Assembly (NCBI GenBank): GCA_964016885.1
Contig: OZ024740.1
Span: forward strand, 334,924,001 to 334,988,000
DNA: 64,000 nt
Source of the DNA: Eledone cirrhosa
Lineage: Eukaryota
Direction of reading: 5' to 3'
Each line of letters starts with the position of its first letter. The stretch's first letter is position 1. The notes under the pieces were generated by a model. The model worked only from the letters and a program-made list of their open reading frames with translations. It ran no database searches and was not told the DNA's origin. Position numbers and translations under genes: made by a program. Shown in pieces: positions 1-63,467 of the stretch.

Positions 1-233
1 TACAAAAAAGGATGAGAAACTTGATGAATTATTTCCTTTAAGACTGTGACAATATATGTTAAGAAATATGATTGTATACGCTGTGGGCGTAAGAAATAAC
101 TGAATATTTGAAAATATTTCCACTAGTAAGATTTTTGACATAGGAAATGTTTTCTCTCAAAGACAGTAAATGAGTAATATATTCAAATCTTTACTAAAAC
201 CCCTATAATATATTTTGAGCATACCTAAATTAA

Positions 234-395
234 TTGTTTCTATTTTTGGCACAACGCCAGCAATTACCCAGTACATTACTGGTACTTTATTTTATCGAAC
301 CCGTAAGGATGAAAAGTGGGATTTGAACTCAGATCATTAAGAGATGTAACTCAATTCTTCAAAGCATGGTGTCCGACTCTCTACCGATACAGCCA
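234..395 (-). mobile_element. tRNA-derived SINE, same family, with internal deletion
   Basis: ggcacaacgccagcaatt...ggtactttattttatcgaacccgtaaggatgaaa...gggatttgaactcag. Confidence 0.75.
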
Positions 396-453
396 AATGC
401 GTGTTGAACATATGATGTGTGAAATATTTTCAAGATGACTTGCATGTTGAGAT

Positions 454-16370: not shown

Positions 16371-17883
16371 CTCACGAGTGTATTTCACTCGTGATAAAGA
16401 ATGAAATATATATTATATATTTTTGTCTAAAATAACAAAAAATTGTAATTTTTTTTTCCATAAAATCTATAAGTATATTTCATAAAAGCCTGATGGAATT
16501 ATGTTTTTAACGTAAACAGAAATGGCATTATTATCATTTATTTCAAGGTGGTGTTTGAAATAAATCATAAATATTGAAAACAATTATATATTTGAAATGC
16601 GTGTTAAATTCTATATATCCAGATAAGAGCTGTGTGTTGATTTCTTTTTACCGACAGCTTCATACAGAAACACAGTTTAACGGAACAATAATTGTAGTGT
16701 AGATATCCACACCCTAAATAATGTTCAGTTTTTCAATATGTTTCCGGTGCACCAATCTTATCTAATAATGAAAATCTCTCATGTCGAAAATGATGTATCA
16801 GCGCATTTGCGGGAAACAATTGAACTAGCTTCTGTTTGAATTAACGTGTGAAATAGTCAAGAATTCAATAGGCATGTGTGCCATTACTACACCCCACACA
16901 GAATGAGTGTCACATAGTTTTACAACTCTGCAATTTGAATCATATTTCAACCTATCCGAAAGACTTGCAAACCGTTTCTTTGTATCGTATTTCTCTTACG
17001 AGTTCTGAGAACTAACAAATTAACTTGCTACAGAATATTTTCTTTATTTTGTTTTTTTCCATAAAACAGGAAGTCATAATCTGAATAGAGGTGGAATGCC
17101 CGATTCGTGTGTGTATTGATATTGCAGTGTTTGTCAACAACCCTTTCGTTATTTCCAAATCCAGCCAAGAGAACCCATGACTATCAACCTTCAAGTGTCG
17201 ATTGAATAGAAGTATCATTGACAAAGGACGATTTAGTCGAGTAAATCTAACCGCGAATTCATAGCCATGTATGTGTATTAGATTTCGTTATTATATAGGG
17301 AAACATTACTAACATGTCTATACTGAAACGAATACAATATTTAGAAATGGGATTTCAATTCATATTTAATATGCTAATTTAATAAGCCTTTTTACTTGTG
17401 TCATTGCGCCCACTTTCATTTTTATTCTGCAAATCAATCTTTGTTATTTTCTTTCTTCATATGTCAGCATTTAAATAGGACTAAGTAGTAATCAACAATG
17501 TTTAGTAAGAAAAATGCAACATATCAATACGCAAATTCACTGATCTTGTCTTGTGTATCACTACAATGGTAATTATAAGAAAAAAAACGTATGTAATAAG
17601 GAAATATAAATTATTTATCTACATATATTACAATAATAATTGAAGATTTATCAGCCTTGCAAGCATTTCAATGATTTCAGTGATATATGAATTATAGTGT
17701 TAATAGAAATTTCTTTAAGAATTATGAAAAATCCTGTTACTTAATTTTTATTGAATATTATTGAATTACATTCCAAGGAAAACTATCTTCTAAATGTTTA
17801 TTTTTTGGTGTACGTACACACGGATGCATTTGGTTTGATTTTATTGTCTTTCACATAGAGAACTATATTGTATATTCTAATAA

Positions 17884-18066
17884 TTGTTTCTACTTTCGGC
17901 ACAAGGCCAGAAATTATCCAGTGCATTACTGGTACTTTATTTTATCGACCCCGTAAGGATGAAAGGCAAAGTTAACCTCGACAGGATTTGAACTCAGAAT
18001 GGCAAGGGCCGTAACTATGCTGGAAAACATGTCCGATCCTCTACCGATACTGCAAATTCACCGCCC
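17884..18066 (-). mobile_element. tRNA-derived SINE, same family
   Basis: High similarity to 46871-47059. Confidence 0.85.
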
Positions 18067-18728
18067 TAATAATACATAATTATCATACTTACTAGAAGAT
18101 AAAACGGTTAAAAATAATCTGTACCTTTCTTAGGTATAAACCTACTTCCTAGTAAAACCAAGTCATTTCACCACTCTTAGATAGGATACATCTCAGTATA
18201 CGGTAATACGCAAAACTCTAATTTTCGCAGATAGAAACCAACACTATCGTAAGATGTTAGGATTCCTAAATTATGTGTCCCCACAATTTACAAGACTAAT
18301 ATATCCATATGGTAGAATACGTTTGAAAGAAAATCTCAAATGAAACTTTTTAGTATTGAACATTCACATGAATCAAATTGTGATGCGTGTAATATTCTGA
18401 CATCAATTACCCAAGTGCAATGACTTCATGGCCGTGTTTTATTTGACTATCTGATAATCATCAATGTTACATCTATATTCGTTTTATAATAATGATAGTC
18501 ATTATAGCTGAAGTAATATAATAACATAAAGAGTCGATATTTTGAAGATTGTATAAGTGTATGCAATTACATTGTGTGATATTTGTAAATATTATTTTCT
18601 GAACAGAACTTGTGAAAATCAAAGTTATTTTCATGAAATTTCATTACATTCTGAAAGAAATTGGTGTTAATATAAGAACACATTCAACAATAGACATTAA
18701 TGAAAATATCTAAAAAAGCATAACAAGA

Positions 18729-31654: not shown

Positions 31655-32726
31655 TTATCAACTAATTTCATAGGGAGAAAAAGCAAATTTTACACATAAT
31701 ACTAACTATATTGAAATTTAATGTGTTGAATCTATTTTAGCAACATATAATGTGTATGTAGAGATGGATATGGTAGTGAAATACACTCAATACTCAGCAT
31801 TCTCTCAGATAAATACATAAAGTAAATATAATTTATGTCTAAGCGGAAACATAATTTCAGAGTTAATTACGCCAGGATGACCCATGTATATATATATATA
31901 TATATATACATTTATTTATGTTTTGTGGTTCTCCAATGGGTAGAACTGGCCATTCCGTTTAGTAACCATGATGTAACCGTAAGTACTCTACGTTATGCAA
32001 CTTGTCCCCCGTAGATGTTGAATCCCGTGGCTGGTACGGAGTGAAATGTTTTTTTTTTTATTAAAGCAACATAGGGCTGGAATGGAAATATCCCTTTAAA
32101 GTTTTAATGTTGCATGATATCATCAGGTGCGGATTGCATAATATCTTACTCAGTTAAAGAAATTACGGCAAAAACAGATGGCCCGCGGATTTGGTGTTAT
32201 TGCTGCGGCAGAGCATTTCCGAATATGCATTGACGTGTGTGTTATTCGGAGAAATATATATATAGTGTTTTTGGCAACATTAATCGTTTAAAGGGATATT
32301 TCCATCCCGGTCGTCCATTGATTGAAATACTTTATCTATATTATTCACACACATAATCAACTCGATGGAAATAAGATGGAAGCCAGAAGGTAATTAAGTA
32401 TTGTTACGAAACAATCGGCAACTGTGCTCCTATCAACGCCTGCTATTTTCTTGTATGAATATAATTATTTAATCACTTTGAGAACTGAATACAAAGATGT
32501 TAATAAGATTATCCGTAAAGTATATGACAAATACTTACTAAACCTTTATATCACGTTATTCTCTTTTTTTTACTTGGGCGCCATGAATATTAGGGAGAAA
32601 TTAGGTATAGAAATATATATTGTCATTTAACGATATGAAACAGGAAGTCTAGTTGAAATTAGCTAAAAATTATATTCACATCACTATAGGTATTTAATAT
32701 AAGATTTCGTAAGTATTTACTAATAA

Positions 32727-33062
32727 TGGTTTCTGCTTTAGGCACAAGGCCAGCAATTACCCAGTACATTACTGGTACTTTATTTTATCGACCCCGTAAG
32801 GATGAAAGGCAAAGTTAACCTCGGCGGGATTTGAACTCAGACTGTAAAGGGACGTAACTATGCTAGAAAGCATGGCGTCCAACCCTCTACTGATACTGCC
32901 AATTCACCCACCATTTTAGTATTCAAGTATTTACTAATAACTGTTCCTACTTTAGGCACAAGGCCAGCAATTACCCAGTGCATTACTGGTACTTTATTTT
33001 ATCGACCCTGTAAGGATGAAAGGCAAGTCAACCTCGGTGGGATGTTAACTCAGATCGTAAAG
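32727..33062 (-). mobile_element. Two tandem SINE copies (32727-32912 full, 32941-33062 truncated)
   Basis: Family consensus twice; AAGTATTTACTAATAA-like sequence repeated at each junction. Confidence 0.85.
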
Positions 33063-38145: not shown

Positions 38146-38700
38146 TTCTACTATAAGCACAAGCCCAGCAATTTTGCAGGAAGAGATATTCGAATAAATC
38201 GACGTAAGGATGAAAGGCAGACTTAACATCAGCGTGATATAATTCGTACCCTCTGTATCATACTCTTCATGTGACTTCTGTATGACTAATCAAGAAAATA
38301 TTACTATTAATATTAATTAGCAGAATCGGTAGAGCATCGGACGTAATGCTTCGCAGCTTAGAGTTAGCGCTCTTTATGATCTAAGTTCAAATCCCATTGA
38401 GGCCGATAAAATAAAGTACCAATCACGCACTGGGGTCGATTTAATAGACTTTCCCCTCCCCCAAAATTGCTAGCCTTGTTCCTATATAAGAAACCATTAT
38501 TACTATTATTATTATTGTGGATTGGCAGTATCGGTAGAGGGTCGGACATGCTTTCCAGCATAGTTACGTCCCTTTACGATCTGAGTTCAAATCCCGCCGA
38601 GGTTGACTTTGCCTTTCATCCTTACGGGGTCGATAAAATAAAAGTACCAGTAATGCACTGGTTAATTGCTGGCCTTGTGCCTAAAGTAGAAACACTTATT
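37915..38700. mobile_element. SINE cluster: two decayed minus copies (~37915-38240) and two plus copies (38316-38497, 38517-38697)
   Basis: Plus copy 38517-38697 shows TGGCAGTATCGG A-box-like and GAGTTCAAATCCC B-box with a (TTA)n tail. Confidence 0.75.
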
Positions 38701-41344: not shown

Positions 41345-41706
41345 AGGATACATAGATAGATAAAATGACAGATAGATAAATTATATATGTTTGTATATAT
41401 ATATATATATATAAAAACAAATAACGAAACGAAATTAAATTTCGTTTCGTTTGTAACTCACTTTTGTATGACTGACGCTTAAACAATTAAGTTAAAAATG
41501 TACATCTACATATGCATACTGAAATACTAGTATGCATATGAATACACACACGTATACATATGTAGATGTAACAAGTCTTTCACTGGTTACTTTACTGTGA
41601 GTAACCCAGCTATTCTGTATGTAAACACACAGACAAACCGGTTTTTAGAGTCATAATGGTTGTCGAGGAAACACCTTTCCTCTATTCTCCAGAAAGCCAG
41701 ATAAGG

Positions 41707-41751
41707 AATATTGAACTAGTTTCGTTGTTGTTACAACTCATCAGCAATATT
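41707..41751 (-). ncRNA. Minimal type I hammerhead ribozyme (copy 1)
   Basis: Minus strand: AATATTG CTGATGA GTTGT-aaca-ACAAC GAAA C-TA-G T T CAATATT, giving stem I 7 bp, intact core, stem II 5 bp, palindromic ACTAGT stem III and a GUU cleavage triplet. Confidence 0.85.
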
Positions 41752-42173
41752 TACCTATCTACCGGCCTTTCTGGAGAATCGTAAAAGCACATATCGTTAT
41801 ATGCTTTTTCTATGAAAATTAGTAGTGGGCAGACTAATTTGCATAGAGTGTGAGTACGCACCGGTTCAGCGGAGACGATAAAAACAAATAACGAAACGAA
41901 ATTAAATTTCGTTTCGTTTGTAACTCACTTTTGTATGACTGACGCTTAAACAATTAAGTTAAAAATGTACATCTACATATGCATACTGAAATACTAGTAT
42001 GCATATGAATACACACACGTATACATATGTAGATGTAACAAGTCTTTCACTGGTTACTTTACTGTGAGTAACCCAGCTATTCTGTATGTAAACACACAGA
42101 CAAACCGGTTTTTAGAGTCATATTGGTTTTCGAGGAAACACCTTTCCTCTATTCTCCAAAAAGCCAGACAAGG

Positions 42174-42218
42174 AATATTGAACTAGTTTCGTTGTTGTTA
42201 CAACTCATCAGCAATATT
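42174..42218 (-). ncRNA. Minimal type I hammerhead ribozyme (copy 2)
   Basis: Same 45-nt motif as copy 1, one repeat unit downstream. Confidence 0.85.
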
Positions 42219-42593
42219 TACCTATCTACCGGCCTTTCTGGAGAATCGTAAAAGCACATACAGAATAGCTGGGTTACTCACAGTAAAGTAACCAGTGAAA
42301 GACCTGTTACATCCACATATGTATACGTGTGTGTATTCATATGCATACTAGTATTTCAGTATGCATATGTAGATGTACATTTTTAACTTAATTGTTTAAG
42401 CGTCAGTCATACAAACGTGAGTTACAAACGAAACGAAATTTAATTTCGTTTCGTTATTTGATTTTATCGTCTCCGCTGAACCGGTGCGTACTCACACTCT
42501 ATGCAAATTAGTCTGCCCACTACTAATTTTCATAGAAAAAGCATATAACGATATGTGCTTTTACGATTCTCCAGAAAGGCCGGTAGATAGGTA

Positions 42594-42638
42594 AATATTG
42601 CTGATGAGTTGTAACAACAACGAAACTAGTTCAATATT
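42594..42638 (+). ncRNA. Minimal type I hammerhead ribozyme (copy 3, inverted unit)
   Basis: Plus strand aatattg ctgatga gttgt aaca acaac gaaa ctagt t caatatt read directly. Confidence 0.85.
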
Positions 42639-43787
42639 CCTTGTCTGGCTTTCTGGAGAATAGAGGAAAGGTGTTTCCTCGAAAACCAGTATGACTCTAA
42701 AAACCGGTTTGTCTGTGTGTTTACATACAGAATAGCTGGGTTACTCACAGTAAAGTAACCAGTGAAAGACTTGTTACATCTACATATGTATACGTGTGTT
42801 TATTCATATGCATACTAGTATTTCAGTATGCATATGTAGATTTACATTTTTAACTTAATTGTTTATATATATATATATATATATATATAAGTGTATGCGT
42901 GTGTGTATGTGTGTGTGGGTGGGTGTGTGGGTGTGTGGGTGTGGGTGTGTGGGTGTGCGTGTGCGTGCGTGTGTGTGGGTATGTGTGCGTGTGTGTATTT
43001 GTATCGCTGAGAGTGGAATCAAGCTCTTCGCTCTATATATGCATATTTTATTACTACGTGAGATACTAGTTCATTTGAAAAATGAAGAATTAAGTAAAAT
43101 TAATATGATGAATTCTTCTGACTAACAATAAAGTCTTTGTATTCAAAAGTAATTATATTAATTTCATTTACTTTAACTATAATTATTTCCTATTTTTTCA
43201 ATAGGATACAACTCTGATGAAAAATTCTCTGGTGGAGCTATGTAGAGTTAACGCTACAATATCTTCAACAGACCGAATAATATCAAGAAACCATCCAGAA
43301 ACACTAATGTTTGTAATAATATTATTATTTTTGTTATATTTTTAATATTTTGCTCTTAATAATAATACTTCGTTTCATAAACAGAGCTAGATTCAAAATG
43401 TTGAACTGAAATTCTCACGCCTCGGCAGATATAGTTCACAACATTTATACAACGTCGGTACCAGTCTGTCTGCAGGTTAAATAAATATTTATGGGTCATA
43501 CCATATATTGTAATAGGGATAAATTTTCTGACATATAGGTTAATATATTAGTGAATTATCTGGCGTTTCTTAACCACATATAATATCTTTAAAAATATAT
43601 ATATATATATATCTTTAGTATACATATTTCCTTTGACTTTCAATGTTATATGTAATTTACTTCCAATAATTTCATTTATGGTGTGTTTCAAGTAGGATTT
43701 ACTATGAAAACTCATACGCAGAACATTACTGTGACACCACTCTAATTTATGTGGAACAAAACATTTCCGGCTTTATATATACATACG

Positions 43788-46219: not shown

Positions 46220-46870
46220 ACTGTTATACTCTGCTATGTATTGAGTACCTTATTTCCTGTGGTTACCTCCGATTCAACCCGGAATAACGTACGTATATAT
46301 ATGTTTATATAGTTCAAAGACAGACAAAATCAATGACAGAGATGCAAAACAGAAAAGTGAATTAGATTCAGGCTTAGAATGTGGAAATCGTGATTTTGTC
46401 GGATATAAATCCTTCTTCGGGAAATAGAGATTTCAGGGAGAAGAAAAGTTGGAACAACAGAGTTTGAAAGAAAAGTTTTAAGAAGGCTGGGCATGGTAGG
46501 TGAGTAGTAGCGCGTACGGATATGGGGGCTCGAGTTGGAGACTCCATGTATCATTATAAATTTTAGCTGGAATCATTCCTACAGATAATGGCTAAAGGTT
46601 TTATTTTCAATTATTATGAAAATATCCATCCCCAAGCTCATATTCGAAATTAGGACAGAAACTTTTGGGGATCGAAACATTTCGTTATTTAATGTTAGTC
46701 TGCTTAATATGCTTAGCTCTTATATAGCTACCACAAAATAAACGCACTATCTAACATATTCGAGGAATCACCACAATAAAATACATCTTTATCAAATAAC
46801 ACATTAGTTATTGTAACTAAGGACGCACTTTGTGGTTTTTGTTGGTTTTCAATCAGTGATGTAAAATAAT

Positions 46871-47059
46871 TGTTTCTACTTTTGGCACAAGGCCAGCAAT
46901 TATCCCAGTGTATTACTGGTACTTTATTTTATCGACCCTGTAATGGTGAAAGGCAAAGTTAACCTCGGCGGGATTTGAACTCAGATCATAAAGGGAGGTA
47001 ACTCTATGCTTCAAAGCATGGCGTCCGACCCTCTACCGATACTGCCAATCCACCGCCCT
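46871..47059 (-). mobile_element. Full-length tRNA-derived SINE with ~19-bp target-site duplication
   Basis: Body with GAGTTCAAATCCC B-box and GCCTTTCA..GGGTCGATAAAATAAAGTACCAG central domain. ATCAGTGATGTAAAATAAT at 46852-46870 and 47060-47078. Confidence 0.9.
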
Positions 47060-49640: not shown

Positions 49641-50021
49641 AATATCATGATAAAAGCTCTTTTTTTTTTTTTGTCATCCCTCTATATTTATATCCACATT
49701 GTAATGGAATTCCTAGCATCTTATCCTCATTCATTAATATATAAATATATATATATATAGTTAAAAGAATAGAGGTGTAACATACAAGTTATTATATATT
49801 GGTAAACGGAATAGAAAATGCTGACAAATTGTTCACAGTTGAAAAATAGTTTAATTAGGAATAAAAGAGTATTAGTAATTGTGTGGGTTAGTATTCAGTT
49901 GTGGTTTTAAGTTTTTAAGTTTTTACCGGTTGCGCATTTCTAAATGCTTTTCAAAAATAATTTTGAGATAGAGTGTCCGTGTTGTTTTCTCTGATCTGAT
50001 TAGTTTTGGGAATTCTACCTG

Positions 50022-50266
50022 TTTTTGTGTTAAAAAAGTGTCTCCAGCGCTACTTTGGTGTTGCAAAAATTCTTGTGGTCAAAACAATTTATGATTGGTC
50101 GGTAGAGGTCATGTGAATGTAAAAAATTGATTTTGCGCCAAGAGTGTTTTTATGTTTAAAAAGTGGCTCCAGCGCTACTTGGTGTTGCAAAAATTCTTGT
50201 GGTCAAAACAATTTTGATTGGTCAGTAGAGGTCATGTGAATGTAAAAAATTGATTTCGCGCCAAGA
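50022..50266. repeat. Two-copy tandem repeat, ~125-bp unit
   Basis: ctccagcgctact..ggtgttgcaaaaattcttgtggtcaaaacaattt..gattggtc.gtagaggtcatgtgaatgtaaaaaattgattt.gcgccaaga occurs twice. Confidence 0.9.
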
Positions 50267-51395: not shown

Positions 51396-51413
51396 ATACA
51401 AATAATAATAATA

Positions 51414-51605
51414 ATTGTTTCTACATTTGGCACAACGCCAGCAATCACCAGTGAATTACTGGTACTTTATTTTATCGAACCCCGTAAAGATGAAAGGCAA
51501 AGTTGACCTCGGCGGGATTTGAACTCAGAATGGCAAGGGCCGTAACTCTATGCGTCAAAGCATGGTGCCCGACCCTTTACCCATACTGCCAATCCACCGC
51601 CCTTA

Positions 51606-51659
<54 letters not shown>

Positions 51660-51846
51660 TGTTTCTACTTTTGGCACAAGGCCAGCAATTAGCCAGTGTA
51701 TTACTGGTACTTTATTTTATCGACCCCGTAAGGATGAAAGGCAAAGTTAACCTCGGCGGGATTTGAACTCAGACCATAAAGGGCCGTAACTCTTTGCTGC
51801 AAAGCATGGCATCCGACTCTCTACCGATACTGCCAATCCAACGCCC
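51414..51846 (-). mobile_element. Two tandem SINE copies (51414-51602, 51659-51846) separated by (TAA)n
   Basis: Family consensus twice. Confidence 0.85.
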
Positions 51847-51888
<42 letters not shown>

Positions 51889-52565
51889 TCTACAAGGAGG
51901 AGGCTAGCCCACTGTGCAGGATCTGTGGAGAGAGAGAGGAGACTGTGGCTCACATTGTGTCCGAGTGTAAACACCTAGCCCAGACCCACTATAAGGGCTG
52001 GAGACACGATGTGATGGGCAGGGTGATCCACTGGCACCTGTGCAAAGTAAACAATCTACCACATTCTGAGAAATGGTATGAGCATAGGCCAGAGGCGGTG
52101 ATGGAGAACAGTCAGGTGAAGGTGCTGTGGGATTTTAGGATACAGACGGACAAAAAACTGGAACACAATAGACCTGACCTGGTGGTTGTGGACAAAGAAA
52201 GAAAAAAGATCGTGCCTGATTGTGGATGTGACCTGCCCGTTCGACACGAGAGTGCAAGAGAAGGAGAGGGAGAAAATTAACCGATACCAGGACCTAAAGT
52301 GGGAGGTGAAAAGGATTTGGAACTTCCATGAAGTCAAAGTGATCCCGATTGTCATAGGCGCACTGGGGACTATCTCCAAAGGTTTCCAGGGATGGTTAAA
52401 GAAAATCGGCCCCTTCACGCTTTTTGGAACGCTTCAAAAGGCATGCTTGCTTGGAACAGCAAGAACCCTCCGATACGTCCTGAATATCTGAGGCTGCAGG
52501 TAGTGGCTTGATATTCAATCCAACGGACTTTGCAGTTAACCAACATCAATGACTGAGATTCAAGG
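51889..52565 (+). mobile_element. 5'-truncated non-LTR retrotransposon with restriction-like endonuclease (Dong/R4-like) in (TAA)n
   Basis: Overlapping ORFs give HIVSEC..RHD..IHWHLC..LWDFRIQTD..NRPDLVVVDK / CLIVDVTCPFD..EKINRYQDL..VIPIVIGALG, i.e. CCHC finger plus PD-(D/E)xK RLE, with a frameshift near 52205. (TAA)n on both sides. Confidence 0.85.
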
Positions 52566-52600
52566 AATAACAATAACAATAATAATAATAATAATAATAA

Positions 52601-52776
52601 TTGTTTCTAATTTTGGCACAAGGCCGCAATTACCCAGTACATTACTGGTACTTTATTTTATCGACCCCGTAAGGATGAAAGGAAAAGTTGACCTCGGCGG
52701 GATTTGAACTCAGAATGGAAAAGGCCGTAACTCTATGCGTCAAAGCATGACGTCCGACCCTCTACCGATACTGCCA
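52601..52776 (-). mobile_element. tRNA-derived SINE followed by (GAA)n
   Basis: Family consensus; 5' end replaced by the GAA repeat at 52777-52871. Confidence 0.85.
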
Positions 52777-53766: not shown

Positions 53767-54066
53767 GGGTCAGACGCCATGCTTTCCAGCATAGTTACGT
53801 CTCTTTACGATCTGAGTTCAAATCCCGCCGAGGTTGACTTTGCCTTTCATTCTTACGGGGTCGATAAAATAAAGTACCAGTAATGCAGTGGATAATTGCT
53901 GGCCTTGTGCCTAAAGTAGAAACAATTATTTCATTACGGCCCTTGCCATTCTGAGTTCAAATCCCGCCGAGGTTAACTTTGCCTTTCATCCTTACGGGGT
54001 CGATAAAATAAGGTACCAGTAATGTACTAGTTAATTGCAGGTCTTGTGCCAATAGTAGAAACAACT
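53767..54066 (+). mobile_element. Two tandem 5'-truncated SINE copies
   Basis: ctgagttcaaatcccgccgaggtt.actttgcctttcat.cttacggggtcgataaaata appears twice. Confidence 0.85.
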
Positions 54067-62256: not shown

Positions 62257-62830
<574 letters not shown>

Positions 62831-63467
62831 ATATATATATGGGGGTGGCGTATTATCGTATTTTTATTACATATATATATATGTTTTACCGGCGTGTTGA
62901 GTCTAATATAGATTGTTGACTAACAATTTCTAAGAGTGAACATTTGATCCTTGTACCACTCAAATTTGAACCTCTAATTGGAAATAAATATCATTCAGAT
63001 TTTTTATACGAACATAACAATTCAGTTTTCGGTAATCAAATGACTAATGTTATAATCAGACTCTTAATAAAGTCTTATATAGATGCATAAAAGTAATTGG
63101 CATTCTATATTTCGTGAATATATAATGATTTATTTGCCCATGTGTAAGACCTCCATATTGTCAAACTATACACCATCTAGTCAGCATATTTCTGTTATTT
63201 AGCAGGAATCCTAAACTTAATCATATCAAAAGCTGTGAAGTTTCGTTGTCAATATGAACGCAATAATTATGTTGCTCATTGATTTATTGCAACACAGCCA
63301 CGATCAGCAGTTATATAATATTCATATAAATGAGCCAGAACAATGTTATTTATTGCTTTCCCATGACATACAACAATCCACTGTAGGATTAATACTAACT
63401 AGAATACTTCCATAAGAAATACGAAATGACAATTCATTCTGAACAATCGTTATGGTGATGCCCAAAC

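What the first reader, a model, noticed from the sequence alone, without database searches (positions are those of the whole stretch)
42256..42725. Much of the repeat unit folds into a series of hairpins around the ribozyme
Seen on the ribozyme strand: GGTTACT/AGTAACC; CATATGCATACT/AGTATGCATATG; AACGAAACGAAATT-T-AATTTCGTTTCGTT (14 bp); AAAAGCATAT/ATGTGCTTTT; GAGGAAA-ggtg-TTTCCTC; and a long extension of hammerhead stem I (ATTCTCCAGAAAG...AGATAGG / CCTTGTCT...CTTTCTGGAGAAT). Inference: selection acts on RNA structure, as in compact viroid-like or retrozyme circular RNAs, and the internal loops of extended stem I might supply tertiary contacts with loop II.
Basis: partly seen in the sequence, partly recalled or inferred. 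Interest (0 to 1): 0.7.

Follow-up and report, generated by a model that had tools for sequence, protein, structure and literature searches.

The report
Hammerhead retrozyme with Penelope-type insertions
This is one unit of a 467-base, non-coding jumping repeat whose RNA folds tightly around a self-cutting hammerhead ribozyme; that kind of element (an animal retrozyme) is known, and what this copy adds is insertion scars pointing to Penelope-like retrotransposons as the machinery that copies it.

Summary
The hairpins are real: the 467-bp unit folds at z about -10 against dinucleotide shuffles, still -6.5 without the ribozyme, and better on the ribozyme strand than on the other. One listed hairpin (CATATGCATACT/AGTATGCATATG) is probably not the fold used. 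The unit carries an intact canonical type I hammerhead (GUU site, palindromic helix III), encodes nothing, and occurs in tandem and in many variants: a non-LTR retrozyme, a family already described as highly self-paired. Covariation is weak: 11 of 13 stem transitions keep the pair (p 0.02), but only 6 of 8 among common variants (p 0.19), with one compensatory pair. The useful extra is the insertion anatomy: tandem copy plus inverted 5'-truncated copy, (TA)n targets and two fixed 3' ends about 70 nt apart, the signature of Penelope-like reverse transcription, so far argued for retrozymes mainly by co-occurrence and phylogeny. The scan noted similar scars before on ribozyme-free repeats in other genomes. 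One assembled unit shows 7 of 7 rare changes as A-to-G, a hint of ADAR editing. Expression, cleavage and host species were not shown. New member of a known kind; interest 0.38.

The parts
41394..41413 (.). (TA)10 target tract left of the insertion
   Evidence: sequence
41411..42260 (-). copy B: 850 nt, 1.82 tandem units, two intact hammerheads 467 nt apart; 5'-truncated at unit position 297, 3' end at unit position 212
41691..41762 (-). hammerhead in copy B (second unit), Rfam HH9 39.8 bits, E 2.8e-8, below gathering score 52
42158..42229 (-). hammerhead in copy B (first unit), Rfam HH9 38.8 bits
42256..42260 (.). head-to-head inversion junction between B and A, 5-nt microhomology shared by both copies, at the tip of the 42537-42562-type hairpin in B
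42256..42865 (+). copy A: 610 nt, 1.31 units (unit = 42256-42722, 467 nt, 36% GC), one hammerhead; 3' end at unit position 143
42257..42719 (+). long-range stems 42257-42264/42712-42719, 42267-42272/42704-42709, 42405-42412/42689-42696, 42417-42422/42490-42495 (mean pair probabilities 0.9-1.0)
42396..42398 (+). 3' end site 1 (unit 141-143): end of copies A and C and of 5 contigs in run X1, followed by (TA)n
42399..42467 (+). optional 3' 'tail' of about 70 nt between the two end sites; holds the 13-bp hairpin 42427-42455
42467..42467 (+). 3' end site 2 (unit 212): end of copy B and of 5 contigs in run X1 (plus one longer loose end), followed by (TA)n
42537..42562 (+). 11-bp hairpin with 4-nt loop
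42566..42661 (+). extended helix I: 13-bp distal stem, irregular middle, bulge at 42591-42593, 7-bp helix I proper (42594-42600/42632-42638)
42601..42631 (+). hammerhead core: CUGAUGA 42601-42607, helix II/loop II 42608-42621, GAAA 42622-42625, palindromic helix III ACUAGU 42625-42630, H17 = U at 42631; predicted cut between 42631 and 42632
   Evidence: core definition from PMC3088659
42663..42680 (+). 7-bp hairpin with 4-nt loop
42864..42889 (.). (TA)13 target tract right of the insertion
62386..62831 (-). copy C: separate 446-nt insertion (0.96 unit, 98% identical), intact hammerhead, 3' end at unit position 141, (TA)n on both sides

Best explanation
A young, high-copy non-LTR retrozyme: a non-coding parasite of a Penelope-like element (PLE). 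Proposed cycle. (1, inferred) Tandem copies are transcribed on the ribozyme strand. (2, inferred from an intact core) The type I hammerhead cuts after GUU once per unit, most easily as a double hammerhead in which the palindromic helix III of two neighbouring units pairs, releasing 467-nt monomers; the bulge beside helix I docks on loop II. (3, inferred by analogy with coral, mussel and axolotl retrozymes) A host ligase closes the monomer into a circle; the hairpins and long-range stems (shown by prediction) make it compact and stable. (4, shown as DNA scars, enzyme inferred) A PLE reverse transcriptase/GIY-YIG endonuclease nicks (TA)n and starts copying inside the RNA at either of two fixed sites about 70 nt apart (unit 141-143 or 212), runs on past the ribozyme cut site (circle or uncut multimer as template) and stops at random, giving 0.96-, 1.3- and 1.8-unit copies; priming from both target strands and a 5-nt microhomology join give the head-to-head pair A/B. 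So part of the structure, notably the 13-bp hairpin between the two start sites, may be the signal read by the PLE protein rather than mere compaction. Odds by step: retrozyme 0.9; PLE as mobiliser 0.8; fold under selection as RNA 0.8; circle as actual template 0.55; hairpin as RT signal 0.35.
For: Intact core and flanking pairs in 4 of 4 hammerheads in the window, HH9 match E about 1e-8; geometry equals the 'canonical' metazoan type I motif (helix I 6 bp, II 4 bp, III 1-2 bp with palindromic loop; PMC4209133). Two hammerheads in consecutive units in B. Folding excess and strand bias. 1042 contigs of run X1 lie on the unit, spread over 99+/95-99/90-95/<90% identity as 397/417/193/35; contigs in X1, X11 and X17 cross the unit junction. 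The same two 3' ends followed by TA repeats recur in X1 (5 contigs each; 9 of 52 loose ends shown). Partial tandem + inverted 5'-truncated copy + tail + (TA)n bias are the published PLE signature (10.1101/2021.04.23.441226), and the tail equals the distance between two internal RT start sites in a PLE assayed in vitro (PMC11167929). No listed variant falls in 42585-42635 (0 of 24). 11 of 13 transitions at confidently paired sites keep the pair on the ribozyme strand (null 53%, p 0.02) against 4 of 13 on the other strand (Fisher p 0.015). Two hammerhead segments co-fold with exchanged helix I and paired helix III at -17.0 against 2 x -6.8 kcal/mol.
Against: No RNA evidence at all: expression, cleavage and circularity are untested. 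Five of the 11 compatible changes are rare A-to-G variants that are compatible by construction and may be editing; among variants at 10% or more in X1 only 6 of 8 transitions keep the pair (p 0.19), and private changes in the window copies, which should be neutral, do so in 4 of 5 transitions (4 of 7 changes), so the control is not separated from the test. Three family variants break predicted pairs (42289, 42369, 42488). The tail is about 70 nt, not 30-40. The strictly active double-hammerhead fold scores -12.0, weaker than two misfolded monomers (-13.6). 8 of 9 Xenopus retrozyme dimers did not cleave in vitro (10.64898/2026.07.22.740005), so an intact-looking core is no proof of activity. 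No partner PLE was found; no genome is held.
Confidence: 0.82

Rival explanations
1. The copies are 5'-truncated ends (pseudo-LTRs) of an autonomous Penelope-like element; the hairpins belong to its untranslated RNA and no free circle exists.
For: All insertion marks are those of PLEs; pLTRs carry type I hammerheads and Xenopus retrozymes are homologous to pLTRs.
Against: B repeats a full 467-nt unit head to tail with no coding sequence (longest stop-free frame inside the copies 72 codons); contigs in X11 and X17 close the unit on itself; the ribozyme is of the canonical type found in retrozymes, not the minimal type of animal PLEs; long-range stems pair the two ends of the unit.
Confidence: 0.09
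2. The hairpins are neutral by-products of fold-back or template-switch errors in DNA (local inverted duplications), and only the hammerhead is under selection.
For: Both strands fold strongly (z -8.6 on the other strand); several arms are perfect inverted repeats; covariation is weak; the element does make inversions (junction 42256-42260).
Against: The ribozyme strand is 17-25 kcal/mol more stable in all 5 unit-length stretches folded, G-U pairs favour it 10 to 4, two variants convert G-U to A-U in the ribozyme-strand fold while breaking the perfect DNA palindrome at 42338-42369, and one pair shows a double change.
Confidence: 0.06
3. A viroid-like RNA that replicates as RNA and moves between hosts, with the genomic copies as occasional captures.
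For: 20 runs under 17 organism labels (one a wastewater metagenome) and 17 studies hold part of the stretch; the three laid besides X1 show near-complete, closely related units at depth 5-20.
Against: Most variants of those runs also segregate in X1 (17 of 24 at 10% or more); trace carry-over of a very abundant repeat, or low-copy presence in related species, explains low depth; only one strand has a ribozyme; labels are coded, so host range cannot be read.
Confidence: 0.03

Closest known systems
Metazoan non-LTR retrozymes (coral, mussel, axolotl; Cervera & de la Pena 2020, PMC7229834; vertebrate survey, bioRxiv 10.64898/2026.07.22.740005)
   Same: Non-coding tandem unit with one canonical type I hammerhead, GC under 50%, many variant copies, highly self-paired predicted circle in which the ribozyme is not blocked by other parts of the unit (opening the core costs 1.5 kcal/mol).
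   Different: 467 nt, a little above the 150-450 bp of the first paper but inside the 51-972 bp of the second; unrelated in sequence outside the core to anything found; expression not shown; inverted copy, tail and (TA)n targeting were not mentioned for retrozymes in the parts I read.
Penelope-like elements, pseudo-LTR region (10.1101/2021.04.23.441226; PMC11167929; PMC4209133)
   Same: Partial tandem, adjacent inverted 5'-truncated copy, optional tail defined by two 3' ends downstream of the hammerhead cut site, AT-rich/(TA)n target.
   Different: No reading frame; canonical rather than minimal hammerhead; tail about 70 nt rather than 30-40; ends 234 and 303 nt after the cut site.
Rfam RF02275 Hammerhead_HH9 (clan CL00010) and the Schistosoma Sm-alpha/newt satellite hammerheads
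   Same: Core, helix I with an upstream bulge, 4-bp helix II with a 6-nt A-rich loop (alignment).
   Different: 38-40 bits against a gathering score of 52; helix III cut down to a 6-nt palindrome; cleavage triplet GUU rather than GUC as in the HH9 consensus.
Avsunviroidae viroids
   Same: Size range, branched multi-hairpin circle, hammerhead.
   Different: DNA copies with retrotransposition scars, ribozyme on one strand only, no evidence of RNA-to-RNA replication.

Membership tests
non-LTR retrozyme | type I hammerhead with full core (C3-A9, G12-A15, U16, H17) and intact closing pairs | tested here: met
   criteria from PMC3088659
non-LTR retrozyme | at least two consecutive tandem units each with a complete hammerhead | tested here: met
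   copy B, cores 467 nt apart; criterion
non-LTR retrozyme | unit of a few hundred bases, GC under 50% | tested here: met
   467 nt, 167 of 467 G+C; ranges
non-LTR retrozyme | no protein-coding frame, no tRNA-derived head | tested here: met
   longest stop-free frame inside the copies 72 codons; 0 tRNA genes; no Pfam hit at cut-off in the 5 frames of copy A scanned
non-LTR retrozyme | many dispersed, slightly different genomic copies | tested here: met
   two loci in the window; 1042 contigs in run X1; copy number not measurable, run kind not on record
non-LTR retrozyme | stable, highly self-paired predicted RNA | tested here: met
non-LTR retrozyme | target-site duplication longer than 4 bp when present | tested here: inconclusive
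   both flanks are (TA)n
non-LTR retrozyme | self-cleavage of the transcript | not testable with these tools
   needs in vitro assay
non-LTR retrozyme | accumulates as linear and circular monomer RNA | not testable with these tools
   contigs cannot show strand, ends or circularity
PLE-mobilised element | partial tandem with adjacent inverted 5'-truncated copy | tested here: met
   A/B arrangement; description; one locus only, no strand-change joint listed
PLE-mobilised element | two fixed 3' ends (optional tail) | tested here: met
   unit 141-143 and 212 in window and in X1; tail longer than the published 30-40 bp
PLE-mobilised element | insertion in AT-rich/(TA)n targets | tested here: met
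   4 of 4 outer ends in the window; TA loose ends in X1; the window is rich in TA tracts, which lowers the weight
PLE-mobilised element | homology to the pLTR of an autonomous PLE in the same genome | not testable with these tools
   no genome held
autonomous PLE | RT plus GIY-YIG reading frame | tested here: not met
   none in or beside the copies
viroid (Avsunviroidae) | ribozymes on both strands and no DNA form | tested here: not met
   one hammerhead orientation per unit; genomic DNA copies

The most novel reading that the evidence does not exclude
The folded retrozyme RNA is an ADAR substrate and its A-to-I edits are copied back into the genome by the PLE reverse transcriptase, so RNA editing drives the sequence evolution of the family. 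Basis: 17 A/G against 4 C/T transitions among 24 variant sites on the ribozyme strand (5 C/T with the site read from junction letters); all 7 variants rare in run X1 are A-to-G, carried by one self-closing contig, three clustered in one stem (p 0.003 even when only pair-preserving changes are allowed, post hoc); none of the 17 sites has G upstream. If the host is an octopus (my recall-based guess), it is the animal with the strongest hyper-editing signal in PMC5625713.
Probability: 0.12. Interest if true: 0.72.

Novelty: new member of a known kind. Interest (0 to 1): 0.38.

Why it matters
That a retrozyme unit is highly folded is expected. What could matter is mechanism: how animal retrozymes get copied into DNA is an open question, with PLEs proposed from co-occurrence and pLTR phylogeny. 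This locus shows the PLE-specific scars (inverted truncated copy, two internal start sites, TA targets) on a bona fide hammerhead retrozyme and names the two RNA positions and the hairpin to test with a purified PLE protein. If the A-to-G hint held, it would be a route by which RNA editing becomes heritable in a mobile element.

Tried and rejected
Rfam at gathering thresholds: 0 matches in the window; the many miRNA and sRNA matches at relaxed E-value are generic hairpin scores far below their cut-offs. Own genome: not held. Relatives for covariation: the specific core pattern found 0 in metagenome contigs and 0 in prokaryote genomes; a looser one found 0 in viral contigs and 8 metagenome loci that share only the core (best E 0.99 to the unit), so they were not used; five of them look like unrelated hammerheads with the same palindromic helix III. 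No R-scape-type test was possible: the window copies are 97-99% alike and read laying gives sites, not haplotypes. Four of the 28 variant rows (42304, 42314, 42416, 42461) were dropped as private changes of the reference copy. Host gene: 150 of 349 complexity-filtered frames (29700-52761) scanned against Pfam, none at cut-off; a candidate exon at 43205-43312 found no homologue, so an intronic setting is not claimed. Host species is not established by any search. Literature: searches 'retrozyme/hammerhead/octopus', 'octopus ribozyme Penelope', 'retrozyme editing', two ADAR-retroelement searches showed no cephalopod retrozyme and no write-back of edits in retrozymes at listing level; an Octopus vulgaris repeat annotation has 0 occurrences of ribozyme or retrozyme in its main text (supplement listed, not read). 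The supplement of PMC7229834 could not be read and those of the bioRxiv preprints are closed; they may list cephalopod retrozymes.

Full report
Setting. The window is AT-rich, microsatellite-rich animal-type DNA with no gene that I could identify. From recall, its abundant 170-190-bp SINE-like repeat and composition suggest an octopus; no call establishes this, and no genome is held.

Observation. The stretch folds far better than chance: z -10.3 linear, -9.6 as a circle, 0 shuffles as good. The result survives block-wise shuffling (z -9.4) and removal of the ribozyme (z -6.5), and none of 20 control tiles passes -3.9. The opposite strand also folds (z -8.6), as expected for Watson-Crick stems, but is 17-25 kcal/mol weaker in 5 of 5 unit-length stretches, and G-U pairs favour the ribozyme strand 10 to 4. 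Details to correct: the 14-bp hairpin is 13 bp with a 3-nt loop; the first hairpin is marginal alone; and the CATATGCATACT palindrome has probability 0.18 on the ribozyme strand, where a nested 20-bp stem with an inner hairpin dominates.

Anatomy. The finding is one turn of a 467-bp unit. Copy A (42256-42865, +, 1.31 units) stands head to head with copy B (41411-42260, -, 1.82 units), sharing 5 bases at the junction; copy C (62386-62831, -, 0.96 unit) is a separate insertion. Copies differ at 16 private sites, about 1%; A and B share one letter (unit 52) that C lacks. Each unit has one type I hammerhead, identical over the core in 4 of 4 copies: CUGAUGA at 42601, a 4-5-bp helix II, GAAA, a helix III reduced to the palindrome ACUAGU, and a cut predicted after GUU at 42631. 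It matches Rfam HH9 at E about 1e-8, below the gathering score, and fits the core rule of PMC3088659 (passages) and the canonical metazoan geometry of PMC4209133 (first quarter and passages). The alignment with HH9 keeps the bulge just upstream of helix I and the A-rich 6-nt loop II, which is where tertiary contact is expected (PMC6155905, passages; the detailed contact geometry I only recall). In the circle nothing else in the unit blocks the core (1.5 kcal/mol to open), and two copies co-fold through helix III with exchanged helix I (-17.0 against 2 x -6.8), though the strictly active dimer scores only -12.0.

Family. Of 24 runs listed, 20 hold part of the stretch; I laid 4. Run X1 gave 1042 contigs from over 99% to under 90% alike: a large, diverse family. 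Its loose ends (9 of 52 shown over all runs) include TA repeats after 42398 (5 contigs) and after 42467 (5 contigs), the same two points where the window's copies end. X8, X11 and X17, under other organism labels, gave 10, 1 and 1 contigs at depth 5-20; X17's 503-letter contig wraps the unit with a 30-letter overlap, which a tandem array and a circle would both give. Whether these are related species or carry-over cannot be told.

Is structure selected? The table had 28 variant sites; 4 are private changes of the reference copy and were dropped. Of the other 24, 14 lie at sites paired with probability 0.5 or more: 11 keep the pair, 3 break it. For transitions that is 11 of 13 against a null of 53% (p 0.02), and 4 of 13 on the other strand (Fisher p 0.015). 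One double change (T-A to C-G, 42275/42290) is shared by X8, X11 and X17, with the neighbouring pair lost. No variant falls in 42585-42635. Against this, five compatible changes are rare A-to-G variants; restricted to variants at 10% or more in X1 the count is 6 of 8 (p 0.19), and private changes in the window copies keep the pair in 4 of 5 transitions. The covariation evidence is therefore suggestive only; the folding excess and strand bias carry the claim.

Mechanism. The unit meets all sequence-testable features of a non-LTR retrozyme (PMC7229834, parts 2-4 of 6 read; bioRxiv 10.64898/2026.07.22.740005, parts 1-3 of 5), whose RNAs are self-cleaved, ligated to circles and predicted to be highly self-paired. 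The insertion pattern is that of Penelope-like elements: partial tandem, adjacent inverted 5'-truncated copy, a tail on one end, (TA)n targets (10.1101/2021.04.23.441226, passages). In the one PLE assayed in vitro the tail is the stretch between two internal reverse-transcription start sites near a stem-loop downstream of the hammerhead, and uncut RNA was the main template (PMC11167929, parts 1-2 of 4). Here the two ends are about 70 nt apart, both follow a short T-rich motif with 2-3 bases of homology to the TA target, and the 13-bp hairpin lies between them. All three copies run through at least one ribozyme cut site, so the template was a circle or an uncut multimer; the data do not choose. 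I infer that the fold serves stability of the monomer and, in part, recognition by the PLE protein.

Editing hint. On the ribozyme strand A/G transitions outnumber C/T 17 to 4 among the 24 sites (17 to 5 with the junction site, p 0.01); G-U tolerance explains part of this. All 7 variants under 5% in X1 are A-to-G and sit on X17's contig, three in one stem (p 0.003 under a pair-preserving null, post hoc). None of the 17 has G upstream (p 0.07), as ADAR targets tend not to (PMC5625713, passages). Within X1 alone the excess is 10 to 4 (p 0.12). The kind of run X17 is unknown and alleles look like editing, so this stays a lead.

Novelty. A new member of a known kind. My searches listed no cephalopod retrozyme, but the library is partial, supplements were unreadable and the host is a guess. 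PMC7761336 (passages) has no mention of tail or editing. Two earlier notes of this scan describe similar PLE-type scars on tRNA-bearing, ribozyme-free repeats in other genomes; I saw them after reaching this reading and did not test them. Interest 0.38: ordinary as a folded retrozyme, useful as a test case for how retrozymes are mobilised.

Noticed in passing
window 226-396, 17878-18070, 32720-33060, 38316-38700, 46865-47055, 51410-51840, 52596-52776, 53767-54064: About a dozen copies of a 170-190-bp SINE-like repeat, 75-96% alike, often ending in (TAA)n-type microsatellites and twice in tandem; from recall it resembles the abundant octopus SINE.
   Followed up: no
window 43205-43312 and about 43392-43478, + strand: Two candidate short exons in one frame just downstream of the insertion. 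If real, the A/B pair lies in an intron and a read-through transcript would form a 610-bp, 99% complementary hairpin that hides copy A's ribozyme. No homologue found for the first.
   Followed up: partly
window 51780-52277 +: 166-codon frame with a weak zf-RVT match (E 0.004, below cut-off): possibly a LINE remnant.
   Followed up: no
window 42548: The A-to-G variant in run X17 turns the 4-nt loop of hairpin 42537-42562 into a GNRA-type loop; copy B is truncated exactly at this loop.
   Followed up: no
window 42642-42716 and unit junction: Run X1 holds a more diverged subfamily (one 160-letter contig with 12 other letters in 75; 35 contigs under 90% alike), the material needed for a proper covariation test.
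   Followed up: no
L001, L004, L005, L008 (matches at 483, 175, 22, 751): A family of unrelated type I hammerheads with the same palindromic helix III and GUU site, 78-91% alike between contigs, lying 140-170 bases upstream of a long frame of over 350 codons of unknown kind in L004 and L008.
   Followed up: no
L002 480-512 -: Another hammerhead with the same helix III in a contig with direct repeats of 120-130 bases at both ends; possibly a PLE or retrozyme fragment.
   Followed up: no
window 50020-50266, 1535-1633/2747-2845, 45602-45897/55673-55844: Other recent duplications (a 123-bp tandem pair, a 99-bp repeat, an inverted 100-190-bp repeat).
   Followed up: no
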